Shown: positions 55,601 through 62,365 of the stretch, one piece after another
How the letters are laid out: every line of letters begins with the position of its first letter
How positions within the stretch are numbered: position 1 is the first letter of the stretch
Assembly: GCF_002571385.2 (NCBI RefSeq)
Contig: NW_019217912.1
Coordinates: forward strand, 443,380 to 507,379
Direction: 5' to 3'
Source of the DNA: Stylophora pistillata
Taxonomy: Eukaryota
Length of the DNA: 64,000 nucleotides
Notes under the pieces: model-generated
Seen by the model: only the letters and a program-made list of their open reading frames with translations
Told to the model about the DNA's origin: nothing
Databases searched by the model: none
Position numbers and translations under genes: made by a program

Positions 55601-58600
55601 CAGGAACTCAGTAAAACCCACGAAAAGTCTAGGGAAGGAAAACATATCACAAGCCTTCATCATTCTATCAAGAAAGCAGGAGTGAGAAAGCCACGTTCAA
55701 TAGAATCCAATAGAATTGTAACAACAACTTACCATTCTTTAAAGAATAAACTTCACAAAAAGGGTCATCAGAATGGAAAAGGTGGTAAGAAGAATCAGGT
55801 AGTAATAAGAAGGCCACCACTTGTATATCACCCACCGCCAGAGGTGTATCATAGGCCAGATATCATTGTGCATCGCCCTGATATCGTACTCCATCAACCT
55901 TCCGTTGTCTATCATCAACCTTCCGTTGTGGTTCATCGTCCTCCTGTTATATACCGACAGCCACCAGTAGTATTTCATCAACCAGCACCAATGGTAAGAC
56001 AACCAATTTTCCATGCACATGAACACTACATGGCTCACCCTGCATTTGTTCCTTTCACGAGTCATGTCCAACATAGTGGAACTTACATAGGAGCTCCAGG
56101 CTTTTTCAATGACGGGTGGAACTATGGATACGGTCATGCTTTTGGAAAATCGCACGTGATCAAATACAAATCTAAGTCAGAAAAAACAATGAAAAGGAAC
56201 AGGAAACAGGAAACCAGATAGGAGAGAAGAAAGGGAAATATTTTACATCCTCAAGAGGCAAAAGACGAGAAAGCATCCAGAAAGAATGACATAGTGGTAA
56301 GCCGTCCCCCAATCATTTACCATCCACCACCTGAAATTTATCATAGACCAGACATCGTAGTTCACAGAGCGCCAATAGTGCTTCATCGTCCACCTATAAT
56401 CTACCATCAACCACCAGTCGTAGTGCACCGACCTGCTGTTGTGTATCATCAACCACCCATAGTATTCCATCAACCACCTCCCGCAGTTAACCAGCCTATT
56501 CTACACTCTCATGATTCATTTATTCTCCGTCCTGCAGCCAGATTCCTTCCCCAAGGCTCAACGGTAACACACAGTATGAGCTATGTAGGAATTCCAAACC
56601 ATGTAATCCATGGAGATGAGCTGGATTTTCATCACTTCCATCGGTCTCATATTGAACGTTCCTCGAAAGGTAAATTCAACTGGAAGTCATCAAAACCTCA
56701 GATAGCAAAGTCGACAATCTCGAAAACACCTACAACTAAAACTGAAAACACTGAAACGATCATCACCGACCAAACTCAGAAAAAGACTTTGCGATCTACA
56801 ATAAATCACCACCCACTCACGAAAAGACAGTTTATGGGCTCTCACCCACTATATGGACCTGTTTCTCCAATTAATGATGTAGAAGATCTATACAAGTCCA
56901 TTGAACAAAAAGAAAAGATGTCTATTATACCAGGGAACACCTCAATCCGCGAACATGAAGTTGCAAAGCGATCCCATAAACCAAGTCATCACATGACCAA
57001 GAGACAGTTAATCTTACCAGAATCTGCCGGAAGTGTGTATCACAATTCAATACCCTCAGTTTACAATCAACTTGAGACAGCTGCTCTACAGAATCAAGCT
57101 TTAATGGAAGAGCAGGGGATACCTAATCCGGACGGAATCAATATAGAACATTTGCCTGGTTTTGCCGCTAACTTAAAAGCTATTCAGGAGCTTGAAGGAG
57201 CTCCGGTCGCAGCGTCGCGTTTTTCAATACCATTGCAACAATACCTGCCCGCAGCTCCAAAGGATGACCCTCCCGATGTTCGTGTTCACGTCGAAACGGC
57301 AAAATCCTCCATACCGCTTAGAAAACGTGGAAAACGTCAGCTCGTTCCATTATATCAGCAGCAAGGTCCCGTAATTCCGAGATTTCTTTATCAAGCTCAA
57401 AACCCTGGAAGTGTTGGAGTCATACACTCTCCTGCCCCATCATCTCTTTACAACCTCTTCAATGCATACCATCCTGCTTACCACACCATACCAAATCCAC
57501 TGAGCTATTTATCTATGGTTCCGCAACTTCCACATCGTCCCCATGTAAATATAAATGTACAGTCTGCAAGGTCTGCAATACCAGTGCATGTCCTTCAAAA
57601 ACGATCTAAGAGGCAACTACTAGCCCTTACTCCACCAGTCCCAAGAGTTATGCCCGTTGGATTTGATGGAACTGGATTAATTCGTAACTATCCTACATAC
57701 TCGCCTTTCGCAGCTATTTCCCGATTTTCACTTCCACTTTTGACAAACTTCAAATATGCTGACGACTCCGTTCCCTCAGAGCCTGGATACCCAGAAGTAC
57801 TACCCTTGTTTCATCAATATCCAAAACAATTGCACAGGCTATATAACACATTATCGCAAGATGGAAGCAGTGACTCGCCACCAATTAACCCATGGGCCTC
57901 TTATCTAGCAGCCCTTTACAGTAGCTTCCTTGGTTATCCCCTTTATCACCGCCATCATAAACCTAAAGTCCGCGTTGAAGTCCAAGCATCCAAATCACAT
58001 ATACCCAAAGTCTTAAAAACAGAAAACAAGCACACTGTTCATTCCCGAGCTCCCATTACCAAAAGACAGTTACTTAATTACATACCGGAATCCTCATTCA
58101 CCGCAGGTCACTTTACCTTACCACCAGCATTAAATTATGGAATGCAAGGGATTCCTTTACAACGCTCACCACGAGTAAACATCAACGTTGAAACGACAAA
58201 AAAGAACAGAATTCCCGCGGTTAAAGAGTCAAAAGGATCCACAAAACGAGGTAATATAAAACATCGCCAAGTAAACAAAACTGGAGATAAAAGAGACGAA
58301 ATGATAGATGGAGAAAAAAATGGCGCAGATATGTTCCAAAACCGAGGCAACCCTGACTTCGCTAACAATCCAGAAAACCAGTTTGTTGCTACAAGTGAAA
58401 CAGCTGGAAGTGAAGAGGAACCTACATCCAATAATGAAGGCCAGCCTCAAAGTCAGAGTGAAAATTTCCAGCAGCAATCGGAAGAAGAAGCGGTCGGACA
58501 AAGGCAGGATCTACAGCAAAACTCTGAACAGCAACTGTTGCCATCTCAAGATCAACCTGTCATGGAACAGACGACATCGCAACCACAAGCCTTACGTGCA

Positions 58601-61600: not shown

Positions 61601-62365
61601 CCCGTCGAGGTGTTCACGGATCCCATTTCCAACCTAATTGGTGGTGGTGCCGGAAGAAAGAGACCGAAGCTTGGAGGAATAAGGTTAGAGAGCCCTACAG
61701 GCGTTGGAGCTCTTCCCCTTAAAGGAGCTGCCGCTGCGTTAGAGAGTGCGCTTCCTCCTGAATTGGGTGTATCCAATACACTTCAAGACAGCCCAACAGA
61801 GGCAGTTGCCCCGTTTACGCAAGAAACTAGAATTGCTAATGAGCCCTTGTTTCGTCCCCCAAGTGGAATAGCAGGACCTCAACTAGACGCACTGGAGAGA
61901 GAAGGTGATAGAGCAAATGATGTTCCATTAAATGATCTGCCTTCCATGAGACCAGCAGTACTCCCTCTGCCATCGATCAATCGGGTCTTCCTACCAAATC
62001 TAGAGGTTCCGCAGGCAGCGCCGCCGCAGGTGAATCCACTGCTTCTGACACCAAGGGTGTTACCAATTGGGCCCATACTTCCCATCGCATCACCTGCACC
62101 TTTACCACCACCAGTGGAAGAGACTGAACCCACAGAAGTTCCACAGGCCCCTCCTCGCTTCGCACCCTTGCTTCCACCCATTTTTCCCCTGCCAGGTCCT
62201 AGTATCGCACCGAATCCCGCCTTAACTGCCCCAGACAGTTTGCTACCTGAACCAGAAGATGATAAACCATCGGTGCATGTTAATGTGGAAACATCAAGAT
62301 CGAGTGTTCCTGAAACGGGTCGCCACTCTAAACAGCACGCAAACAGCCCAGCCAAACGTGGCTAG
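43628..62365 (+). CDS. Gene G: giant secreted His/Pro-repeat polyprotein with no coding introns seen (~6245 codons), one internal in-frame TAG at 56219-56221
   Basis: Signal-like MFGWSPPNILATLVLFHSLLLHLKLSPIQA from ATG 43628. ORFs 43310-56221 and 56294-62365 share a frame and read ETR*ERRKGN..RKNDIVVSRPPIIYHPPPEIY. 18 HRPP/HQPP domains, then KR-Q modules ending in RPxVS[VI]xV[EQ]. Confidence 0.85.

What the first reader, a model, noticed from the sequence alone, without database searches (positions are those of the whole stretch)
56820..62365. KR-Gln modules ending in a conserved beta-strand tag
Seen: about 14 modules of variable Pro/Gln-rich sequence end in PDVRVHVETA, RPHVNINVQSA, KPKVRVEVQAS, SPRVNINVETT, HTSISVNVAE, RPRVSISVQTA, RPRVSVNVEVS, RPRVSIHVETA, DPHVSVNVEAS, RPRISVHVESS, RPRVSVDVNVA, RPKVSISVQTA, RPHVSINVQTA and KPSVHVNVETS. 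Most start with KR-Q followed by a hydrophobic residue. Known: an exposed N-terminal Gln forms pyroglutamate, and alternating V/I patterns form amphipathic beta strands. Inference: a universal polymerisation tag that co-assembles diverse disordered arms into one cross-beta or strand-addition fibre.
Basis: partly seen in the sequence, partly recalled or inferred. Interest (0 to 1): 0.75.

Follow-up and report, generated by a model that had tools for sequence, protein, structure and literature searches.

The report
Giant cnidarian polyprotein with frameshift-gated tags
The flagged stretch is the last third of a 6,245-codon coral gene whose 14 modules each end in a short, conserved, predicted beta-strand tag; the gene likely encodes a precursor that is cut into structural peptides of the stinging capsule, and Hydra-like relatives likely reach the same tag block only through a virus-style -1 ribosomal frameshift.

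Summary
In detail: 14 alternating V/I tags (shuffle mean 0.08) and 16 KR-Q starts (0.42). They form the C-terminal third of one frame, 43628-62365, the Stylophora pistillata gene SpisGene9031. It has a signal peptide, 18 His/Pro repeat modules, basic spacers, alternative splicing and a polymorphic stop at 56219. Orthologues of 5,000-6,300 aa occur in corals and Nematostella, and Hydra has a 4,502-aa homologue. Tags are 79% identical across orthologues against 46% for the arms. A tag profile found only this family among 1.84 billion proteins, so 'universal' is unsupported, and assembly is untested. Indirect evidence ties the family to Hydra nb035, a nematoblast-specific gene. The best model is a convertase-cut precursor of cnidocyst structural peptides in which the tags act as assembly strands. 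The unexpected result is in the Hydra clade. In 18 of 18 loci, ORF1 ends just after an invariant U_UUU_UUA heptamer followed by a covarying stem-loop, and the tag block lies in the -1 frame without its own start. This is a strong candidate for a non-viral -1 programmed frameshift in an animal cellular gene; it has not been measured.

The parts
43628..62365 (+). Whole coding frame of the giant precursor (6,245 codons; S. pistillata AWC38_SpisGene9031), one in-frame TAG
43628..43717 (+). Predicted signal peptide; holds the most hydrophobic 15-mer of the protein (residues 9-23); A30-K31-P32 invariant in 15 orthologues
   Evidence: hydropathy only, no signal-peptide predictor run
44864..45010 (+). 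Invariant beta-rich segment of about 40 aa in the N-terminal region (approximate limits); no PDB sequence match
46154..56641 (+). 18 His/Pro/Val/Ile heptad-repeat modules (85-160 aa) separated by K/R-rich spacers; 12 of 18 end in Gly before K/R
49392..50036 (+). 645-nt in-frame GT-AG segment inside the coding exon, alternatively spliced; its donor also splices to the last exon at 62804 (short isoform, 1,935 aa, lacking all 14 tags)
   Evidence: same segment absent from L002/L003 and present in L001
56219..56221 (+). In-frame TAG, polymorphic: A (Lys codon) in run X2, T in RNA runs X15 and X17, contig break in X8; sense in 15 of 15 orthologues examined
56822..56998 (+). KR-Q module without a tag, plus spacer
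57005..57301 (+). Module 1, tag at 57269-57301 (aligned in 16 of 16 homologues)
57338..57568 (+). Module 2, tag at 57536-57568 (16 of 16)
57614..57991 (+). Module 3, tag at 57959-57991 (16 of 16)
58067..58198 (+). Module 4, tag at 58166-58198 (12 of 16)
58295..58819 (+). Module 5, starts KR-D, Gln/Glu/Pro-rich, tag at 58790-58819 (14 of 16)
58877..58996 (+). Module 6, tag at 58964-58996 (8 of 16)
59027..59311 (+). Strongly conserved KR-Q module without a tag, plus spacer
59318..59425 (+). Module 7, tag at 59393-59425 (14 of 16)
59531..59653 (+). Module 8, tag at 59621-59653 (13 of 16)
59720..59851 (+). Module 9, tag at 59819-59851 (16 of 16)
59891..60175 (+). Module 10, tag at 60143-60175 (15 of 16)
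60263..60385 (+). Module 11, tag at 60353-60385 (6 of 16)
60476..60796 (+). Module 12, tag at 60764-60796 (12 of 16)
60875..61021 (+). Conserved RR-Q module without a tag; matched to the -1 frame of Hydra-clade loci
61028..61369 (+). Module 13, tag at 61337-61369 (15 of 16)
61484..62296 (+). Module 14, Pro-rich, terminal tag at 62264-62296 (16 of 16); a like terminal tag ends the -1 frame of Hydra-clade loci
62391..62803 (+). GT-AG intron just after the stop of the long form
62804..62847 (+). Start of the shared last exon: 3' UTR in the long form; gives the last 14 codons and the stop of the short form, with a short alternating-V stretch before KK
32948..40166 (-). Three neighbouring Gly/Tyr/Cys-rich ORFs (32948-33625, 34111-35784, 38178-40166) with the same dibasic ... 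K/R-S-x-I/V module boundaries (8 sites, about 0.36 expected); the nearest is syntenic in another coral (L001)

Best explanation
The region is the C-terminal block of one giant, likely secreted polyprotein that a proprotein convertase probably cuts at conserved basic sites into some 35 structural peptides, likely inside the developing stinging capsule, where the conserved tags would act as short beta-strand stickers that tie variable Gln/Pro-rich arms into the assembling structure. Shown: one frame, module-and-spacer layout, tag and site conservation, transcription and splicing, the nonsense allele. Inferred: cleavage, pyroGlu starts, amidation of Gly-ended modules, cnidocyte expression, assembly. 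The basic spacers (K+R 27.7% against 5.5% in modules) would keep the precursor soluble until they are cut out. The amount of tag block appears to be tuned, by a short splice form that omits it in the coral and probably by a -1 ribosomal frameshift in the Hydra clade.
For: Architecture and charge segregation. Conservation ranks dibasic 0.91 > tag 0.79 > post-tag 0.70 > module head 0.59 > spacer 0.49 > arm 0.46. His/Pro modules use the same K/R-S-x-I/V boundary with no tag, so the tag is not needed to mark that boundary and more likely belongs to the released peptide. Twelve of 18 His/Pro modules end in Gly, and 18 of 18 Hydra-clade ORF1 terminal tags end G-KR. Link to nb035, expressed only in differentiating nematocytes (PMC2687796 passages): same layout of a large exon 1, internal donors and a short shared last exon, and an 'extensin-related' domain. 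Alatina-versus-nb035 BLAST rows put repeat starts 199 aa apart with 94.8% identity over 96 aa (PMC4989536 supplement rows). Hydra LOC100210570 has one 199-aa spacing among 10, and that repeat is 94.8-96.9% identical over 96 aa to a non-Hydra homologue, with 62% over the longer span against 61% reported. The Alatina transcript is tentacle-restricted (238 against 2.9 or less). A nematocyst-specific convertase, NSP6, occurs in all cnidarian clades (PMC6134521 passages), and carboxypeptidase D is in a nematocyst proteome (PMC3517583 passage).
Against: The nb035 sequence was never seen. Two of four identity figures fit poorly (67-69% against 77%; 91-92% against 74.5%), and the offset predicts about 1,010 aa to the end, not the 782 aa of the published ORF. 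There are no cell-type data for the coral gene itself. AlphaFold2 shows no sheet among six tags, and the His/Pro model is only moderate (pLDDT 64, pTM 0.30). A stop allele that would remove all 14 tag modules is present in the window and in 2 of 2 RNA runs laid, so the tags may be dispensable or minor. Several tags are missing in many orthologues (6-8 of 16 for two of them).
Confidence: 0.5

Rival explanations
1. The tag is a processing or sorting signal, an extended beta-strand docking site for the convertase or a cargo-condensation motif. It is not a structural polymerisation element of the final material.
For: It always sits directly before K/R (14 of 14) and is conserved together with the four residues after it (0.70). 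Tag-like strands also precede basic sites in the N-terminal region of Hydra-clade proteins.
Against: Eighteen His/Pro modules and three neighbouring genes use the same boundary without a tag. The Hydra-clade terminal tag ends G-KR, which suits a mature amidated C-terminus. Convertase sites usually span about four residues (recalled), while the tag reaches about ten.
Confidence: 0.22
2. It is the same kind of processed structural precursor, but for a non-cnida secretion (gland-cell adhesive, cuticle or periderm, egg coat or mucus).
For: No cell-type data exist here for any named orthologue. The His/Pro repeat scores against Chorion_3 (41.4 bits in Hydra, cut-off 22; 13.6 bits in the window). 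It lacks the Cys-rich domains of capsule-wall proteins (0 Cys in the finding).
Against: The nb035 match and the tentacle restriction in Alatina; the family spans corals, anemones, Hydra and Clytia.
Confidence: 0.15
3. The KR-Q modules are bioactive peptides (neuropeptide-like or venom-like), with pyroGlu caps and the tag as the active C-terminal pharmacophore.
For: KR-Q starts and G-KR ends are the grammar of cnidarian neuropeptide precursors (recalled; sites), and a shared C-terminal motif with variable N-termini is typical of them.
Against: Modules are 36-271 aa. None of the 14 window tags ends in Gly. They share one frame with 18 low-complexity His/Pro blocks in a 6,000-aa protein.
Confidence: 0.08
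4. For the Hydra-clade junction only: the -1 ORF is reached by alternative splicing to an acceptor near the T-run, or by transcriptional slippage, and not by ribosomal frameshifting.
For: A CAG lies 17 nt after the heptamer in 16 of 18 loci, downstream of a T-run. The family splices inside exons. Whether the loci are DNA or RNA contigs is not stated by the tool.
Against: That AG lies within the 5' arm of the stem and is lost with a compensatory change in L004/L021. Nearer AGs fall at +6, +7 or +8, not in one frame. The 0-frame stop is kept as TAA, TAG or TGA. The T-run is only 6 nt. No fetched locus shows ORF1 joined in frame to ORF2.
Confidence: 0.25

Closest known systems
Hydra nematoblast-specific protein nb035 (sv1-3; Milde et al. 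2009, PMC2687796) and Hydra LOC100210570
   Same: Pro-rich 'extensin-related' repeats; large first exon with internal donors and a short shared last exon; 199-aa repeat spacing and a block about 95% conserved fit the Hydra homologue.
   Different: nb035 is described as a 2.3-kb ORF with 1.4-3.1-kb transcripts and no processing model; the coral frame is 18.7 kb with 14 tags. Identity is inferred, not aligned.
Minicollagens, NOWA, CPP-1, cnidoin, spinalin (cnidocyst structural proteins)
   Same: Cnidarian-restricted, secreted, low-complexity and Pro/His/Gly-rich; basic propeptide sites in minicollagens (recalled).
   Different: No Cys-rich domain or collagen repeat (4 Cys in 6,245 aa; no Pfam hit); polyprotein layout with dozens of modules. 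Spinalin was not compared directly.
Retroviral and retroelement-derived -1 PRF (HIV-1 gag-pol type; PEG10, PNMA3, PNMA5, Rtl3)
   Same: X_XXY_YYZ heptamer in the 0 frame, short spacer, stable stem-loop, long -1 ORF, synonymous-site constraint (criteria in PMC11299033 passages). That U_UUU_UUA plus a stem-loop is the HIV-1 signal is recalled.
   Different: Cellular structural gene with no Pfam family in five ORF2 products and no retroelement domain in two ORF1 proteins; present only in the Hydra clade, absent from the coral window.
Convertase-triggered functional fibres and block-copolymer materials (PMEL, profilaggrin, squid suckerins, peptide-hormone amyloids; all recalled)
   Same: The precursor is cut in the secretory path, and short Pro-delimited beta-strands are joined by amorphous arms.
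   Different: No sequence or fold relation was found; the analogy is of working principle only.
Insect chorion family 3 (PF05387)
   Same: Scores against the His/Pro repeat (41.4 bits in Hydra; sub-threshold in the window).
   Different: The match covers about 60 of 277 profile positions of a P/V/Y/H-rich stretch; probably compositional convergence.

Membership tests
nb035 / LOC100210570 family | Sequence homology to Hydra LOC100210570 | tested here: met
   1,273 bits, the only Hydra gene among 25 hits; shared His/Pro repeats and a terminal KR-Q/tag module. No reciprocal-best-hit test was run.
nb035 / LOC100210570 family | LOC100210570 is nb035 | tested here: inconclusive
   The 199-aa spacing and two of four identity figures fit; two figures and the ORF length do not.
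nb035 / LOC100210570 family | Large first exon, internal splice donors, short shared last exon | tested here: met
   against the passage
nb035 / LOC100210570 family | Nematocyte-specific expression of the coral gene | not testable with these tools
   Only bulk contigs were available; cell-atlas tables were not seen.
Convertase-processed polyprotein | Signal peptide and conserved basic sites flanking modules | tested here: met
   Hydropathy; dibasic identity 0.91; spacers 27.7% K+R
Convertase-processed polyprotein | Processed peptides detected (pyroGlu, amide) | not testable with these tools
   Needs mass spectrometry
Neuropeptide precursor | Many short, near-identical, usually amidated peptides | tested here: not met
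   Modules 36-271 aa, arms unlike each other, 0 of 14 tags Gly-ended
Minicollagen / CRD capsule proteins | Cys-rich domains and a collagen repeat | tested here: not met
   0 Cys in the finding, 4 in the protein, Gly about 5%; no Pfam match
Functional amyloid / strand-addition fibre | Amphipathic alternating strand under selection | tested here: met
Functional amyloid / strand-addition fibre | Self- or co-assembly into cross-beta | not testable with these tools
   The AlphaFold2 single-chain model is uninformative (pLDDT 41.7); needs peptides
-1 programmed ribosomal frameshift (Hydra-clade loci) | Slippery heptamer in the 0 frame with synonymous invariance | tested here: met
   18 of 18 loci, 10 distinct elements; background codon product 0.038 per locus
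-1 programmed ribosomal frameshift (Hydra-clade loci) | Stable structure 5-9 nt downstream | tested here: met
   10-bp consensus stem after 8 nt, 99 of 100 cells paired, 2 pairs with two-sided change (6 of 500 shuffles as high); z -2.5 to -5.6 in 10 of 10
-1 programmed ribosomal frameshift (Hydra-clade loci) | Long coding -1 ORF with no own start | tested here: met
   589-843 aa in 12 of 18, open-ended in 4, short (95 and 99 aa) in 2; upstream -1 stop within 1-9 codons in 17 of 18, no Met between; third-position excess in 5 of 5 pairs
-1 programmed ribosomal frameshift (Hydra-clade loci) | Measured frameshifting | not testable with these tools
   Needs a reporter, ribosome profiling or a transframe peptide
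-1 programmed ribosomal frameshift (window gene) | Same element in the coral gene | tested here: not met
   0 matches at up to 3 mismatches; 11 in-frame heptamers, all with -1 frames of 83 codons or fewer

The most novel reading that the evidence does not exclude
A pan-cnidarian stinging-capsule polyprotein is built like Gag/Gag-Pol. In the Hydra clade, a non-viral U_UUU_UUA plus stem-loop -1 ribosomal frameshift sets the ratio of His/Pro scaffold peptides to beta-tagged arm peptides. Corals and anemones read the same block in frame and tune it by intra-exon splicing. This would be a conserved -1 programmed frameshift in an animal cellular gene of no retroelement origin, and current Hydra gene models would miss the last 600-800 residues.
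Probability: 0.6. Interest if true: 0.87.

Novelty: new variant of a known kind. Interest (0 to 1): 0.72.

Why it matters
First, it turns an 'uncharacterized' 5,000-6,300-aa protein, present from corals to Hydra, into a testable parts list of some 35 predicted peptides. These could be unrecognised components of the cnidocyst thread or wall, and the tag is a 10-residue candidate assembly motif for designed fibres. Second, a recent preprint states that all vertebrate -1 frameshift cases are of viral origin (10.1101/2024.08.30.610563, passage). A conserved case with covariation support in a cellular gene of tractable animals would give the recoding field a direct test, and would show translational recoding and splicing used in different lineages to gate the same protein block. 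Invertebrate cases were not surveyed here. Third, a segregating stop allele just ahead of the tag block in S. pistillata is a natural knockout of that block.

Tried and rejected
No genome was held for the window. Pfam gave no family for the finding. The ESM Atlas gave no usable hit for a His/Pro repeat or the Clytia fragment. PDB sequence search with the tag profile gave only four antibody chains at E 0.04-0.9, taken as chance, and nothing for the invariant N-terminal segment. Foldseek of the His/Pro model had no match at E <= 0.001. The complex prediction of four tag-peptide copies returned 'no answer' (score 0.01, alignment not used) and is not used as evidence either way. Rfam on three junction loci gave two sub-threshold microRNA matches, taken as chance. 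The junction pattern had one match in viral contigs, in a phage head-gene region with no related ORF, taken as chance. Identifier searches in papers gave 0 results; nb035 and four other terms gave 0 in the Hydractinia proteome supplements. Scan archives held nothing. The annotated model removes 55994-56221, bridging the stop, and 55397-55495; RNA contigs in X15 (54761-57890) and X17 (56052-56276) run unspliced across the stop site, so I do not accept that intron. A sequencing error at 56219 is rejected because both alleles are seen. Programmed readthrough there is rejected because 15 of 15 orthologues have sense codons. RNA depth differences along the gene were not used (contig depth cannot rank parts). 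The nematocyte gene v1g243188 is described as fibroin-like (PMC9205923 passages) and was not linked to this gene.
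Full report
Observation. A generic alternating V/I pattern finds 14 tags in the + frame between 57269 and 62296 and none in the 4,197 aa upstream; shuffles of the segment give a mean of 0.08 and a maximum of 2. [KR]R-Q plus a hydrophobic residue or Ser occurs 16 times against 0.42 expected. Thirteen tagged modules start with Gln after a dibasic site, one starts with Asp, and three KR-Q modules have no tag. Each tag is followed directly by Lys or Arg. Read directly from the tags, the polar face has a basic residue (R/K/H) after the first Pro or Thr in 11 of 14 and Glu or Gln after the last Val in 12 of 14, which would suit antiparallel pairing (inference).

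The gene. The finding is the last third of a frame from ATG 43628 to 62365, broken by one TAG at 56219. The frame opens with the protein's most hydrophobic stretch. It then holds 18 His/Pro/Val/Ile heptad-repeat modules, 12 of which end in Gly before K/R. Modules average 5.5% K+R and spacers 27.7%. The match at 100% is S. pistillata AWC38_SpisGene9031. Of 25 hits among 1,695 candidates, 16 others are 5,019-6,329 aa long, including Oculina LOC144643886 and Nematostella LOC116618347; Hydra LOC100210570 (4,502 aa) and Acropora palmata LOC141866752 also appear. A Clytia fragment carries the His/Pro repeat. No Pfam family matches the finding.

Transcripts and the stop. I laid 4 of 24 listed runs. 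At 56219, run X2 has A, RNA runs X15 and X17 have T on contigs that cross the site unspliced, and X8 breaks there. Fifteen of 15 orthologues examined have sense codons. The stop is therefore a nonsense allele that would remove the last His/Pro module and all tags. RNA contigs show a donor at 49391 joined either to 50037 (645 nt, in frame) or to the last exon at 62804 (a 1,935-aa short form without the 14 tags), and an intron 62391-62803 after the long stop. The 645-nt skip recurs in another coral: L002 and L003 lack the segment, while L001 keeps it with the same GT and AG.

Is the tag special? Over 16 homologues, identity to the window is 0.91 at dibasic sites, 0.79 in tags, 0.70 in the four residues after them, 0.59 in module heads, 0.49 in spacers and 0.46 in arms. 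Individual tags are present in 6 to 16 of 16. A profile of the 14 tags run over 1.84 billion representatives returned 11 proteins, all of this family. Single-copy tags, such as Hydra's, were below threshold, so unrelated single-tag proteins are not excluded. The boundary after the tag (K/R-S-x-I/V) also closes His/Pro modules (17 sites against 6.3 expected) and modules of three neighbouring Gly/Tyr/Cys-rich ORFs (8 sites against about 0.36; 0 sites in the seven other ORFs tested). So the boundary is general and the tag is module-specific. AlphaFold2 left a six-tag stretch disordered (pLDDT 41.7) and gave the His/Pro module short strands plus a hairpin at moderate confidence (pLDDT 64, pTM 0.30), with no fold match.

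Cell type. No expression data for the coral gene were seen; the supplements of the Stylophora cell atlas, the .doc supplements of Milde et al. and bioRxiv supplements could not be read and bear directly on this. The lead is Hydra nb035: expressed only in differentiating nematocytes of all types, with a large exon 1, a short exon 2, three splice forms and an 'extensin-related' domain (PMC2687796, passages). Supplement rows of PMC4989536 show a tentacle-restricted Alatina transcript (238 against 2.9 or less) matching nb035 at 141-236 with 94.8% identity, with a second repeat starting at 340. In LOC100210570, one of ten repeat spacings is 199 aa. That repeat is 94.8-96.9% identical over 96 aa to a non-Hydra homologue, and the longer span gives 62% against 61% reported. 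The other two spans give 67-69% against 77% and 91-92% against 74.5%, and the published ORF length does not fit. I put the identity at about 0.7. Capsules hold the needed enzymes: a nematocyst-specific convertase in all cnidarian clades (PMC6134521, passages) and carboxypeptidase D (PMC3517583, passage). That cnidarians have glutaminyl cyclase and amidating enzymes is recalled.

The frameshift. A metagenome scan with the His/Pro alignment gave 32 loci. Eighteen of them carry one KR-Q module with a tag ending G-KR near the end of ORF1. All 18 have CAT TTT TTA one codon before the stop, which is TAA, TAG or TGA (10 distinct elements; background codon product 0.038 per locus). A 10-bp consensus stem starts 8 nt after the heptamer: 99 of 100 cells are paired, two pairs change on both sides (6 of 500 shuffles as high, a control that ignores relatedness), slid controls give 21-46%, and z-scores are -2.5 to -5.6. 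The -1 frame runs 589-843 codons in 12 loci, is open-ended in 4 and is short (95 and 99) in 2. It is closed upstream within 1-9 codons in 17 of 18, with no Met in between. It shows third-position excess in 5 of 5 pairs. It encodes further KR-Q and tag modules and a terminal tag like the coral's, and matches the coral block by profile comparison (probability 90.3, E 1.5e-6 over 38 columns; pairwise BLAST hits are weak, E 1e-5 to 1e-2). ORF1 of these loci aligns best to Hydra, up to its last or next-to-last residue, in 10 of 10. The eight loci placed in a tree group with Hydra at 100/100 on one repeat, with a long-branch warning. Four Hydra RefSeq models end in the same H-F-L-F, but Hydra DNA was not seen, and the organisms behind the loci are unnamed. 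No retroelement domain was found. The window has no such element. The main rival is a splice acceptor at +17, present in 16 of 18 loci but lost by a compensatory change in two. I put ribosomal frameshifting at about 0.7.

Mechanism. Shown: the layout, conservation, splicing, polymorphism and the junction element. Inferred: a signal-peptide-led precursor enters the capsule vesicle; convertase and carboxypeptidase remove basic spacers that kept it soluble; His/Pro modules (many probably amidated) and pyroGlu-capped arm peptides are released; and the tags add as beta-strands to one another or to His/Pro hairpins. The tag block is probably a minor, dosed component, since the coral has a tag-less splice form and a stop allele, and the Hydra clade probably makes it only by frameshift.

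Literature. Searches for seven identifiers and accessions of named orthologues (ten terms in all) gave 0 papers. 'nb035' gave 10 listings, three of them on cnidarians. Frameshift-plus-cnidarian searches showed no paper on this gene among 25 of 37 and 40 of 2,017 listings, seen as titles and abstract starts only. Criteria for -1 frameshifting and the retroelement origin of mammalian cases come from passages of PMC11299033 and of 10.1101/2024.08.30.610563. Also read without a link to this gene: passages of PMC12945647, PMC4445812, PMC9205923, PMC12225738, PMC4944945 and 10.64898/2026.06.23.733813, supplement searches of PMC12945647 and PMC4445812, and the outline and one section of PMC13307990.

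Verdict. The gene is a new variant of a known kind (a convertase-cut structural polyprotein, probably of the nb035 family), with a candidate non-viral -1 frameshift in its Hydra-clade relatives as the most surprising feature. Interest 0.72.

Noticed in passing
window 32948-40166 (-): Three Gly/Tyr/Cys-rich ORFs share the dibasic ... K/R-S-x-I/V module grammar; the nearest is syntenic in L001. Probably a cluster of co-processed structural precursors.
   Followed up: partly
window 1526-2287, 4923-5585, 14247-14885, 18352-18924, 21106-21741 (+): Paralogous pairs of very Cys-rich ORFs (Cys/His/Asp runs; Cys-Gly-Gly runs) starting after KK-C or KR-C. No Pfam hit for the two tested.
   Followed up: no
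window 22234-24756 (+): 840-codon frame with a long Gly/Ala tract after a Cys/Pro-rich stretch; silk-like. No Pfam hit.
   Followed up: no
window 7996-8622 (+): Signal-peptide-like start followed by an Asp/Glu/Lys-rich repeat; an acidic secreted protein candidate.
   Followed up: no
window 32298-32765 (-): 155-aa frame that looks by eye like the C-terminal end of a LINE-type reverse transcriptase remnant (recalled resemblance, untested).
   Followed up: no
window 44864-45010 (+): About 40 residues invariant in 15 orthologues from corals to Nematostella and rich in alternating strands; a possible partner or nucleator for the tags.
   Followed up: partly
window 62804-62847 (+): The short splice form gains a C-terminus with a brief alternating-Val stretch before KK, resembling a truncated tag; may be chance.
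   Followed up: partly
window 56219: The stop allele lies far upstream of the 62391 intron and should trigger nonsense-mediated decay by the usual rule (recalled), yet it is seen in two RNA runs.
   Followed up: no
P0006, P0222, P0046-P0049 (unnamed proteins): A third clade (100/100) with His/Pro repeats and 4-5 in-frame tags; taxon unknown.
   Followed up: partly
L005:1125-9445: A homologue whose His/Pro frame ends before the tag region and whose tags lie in a later frame, suggesting an intron-containing form of the gene.
   Followed up: no
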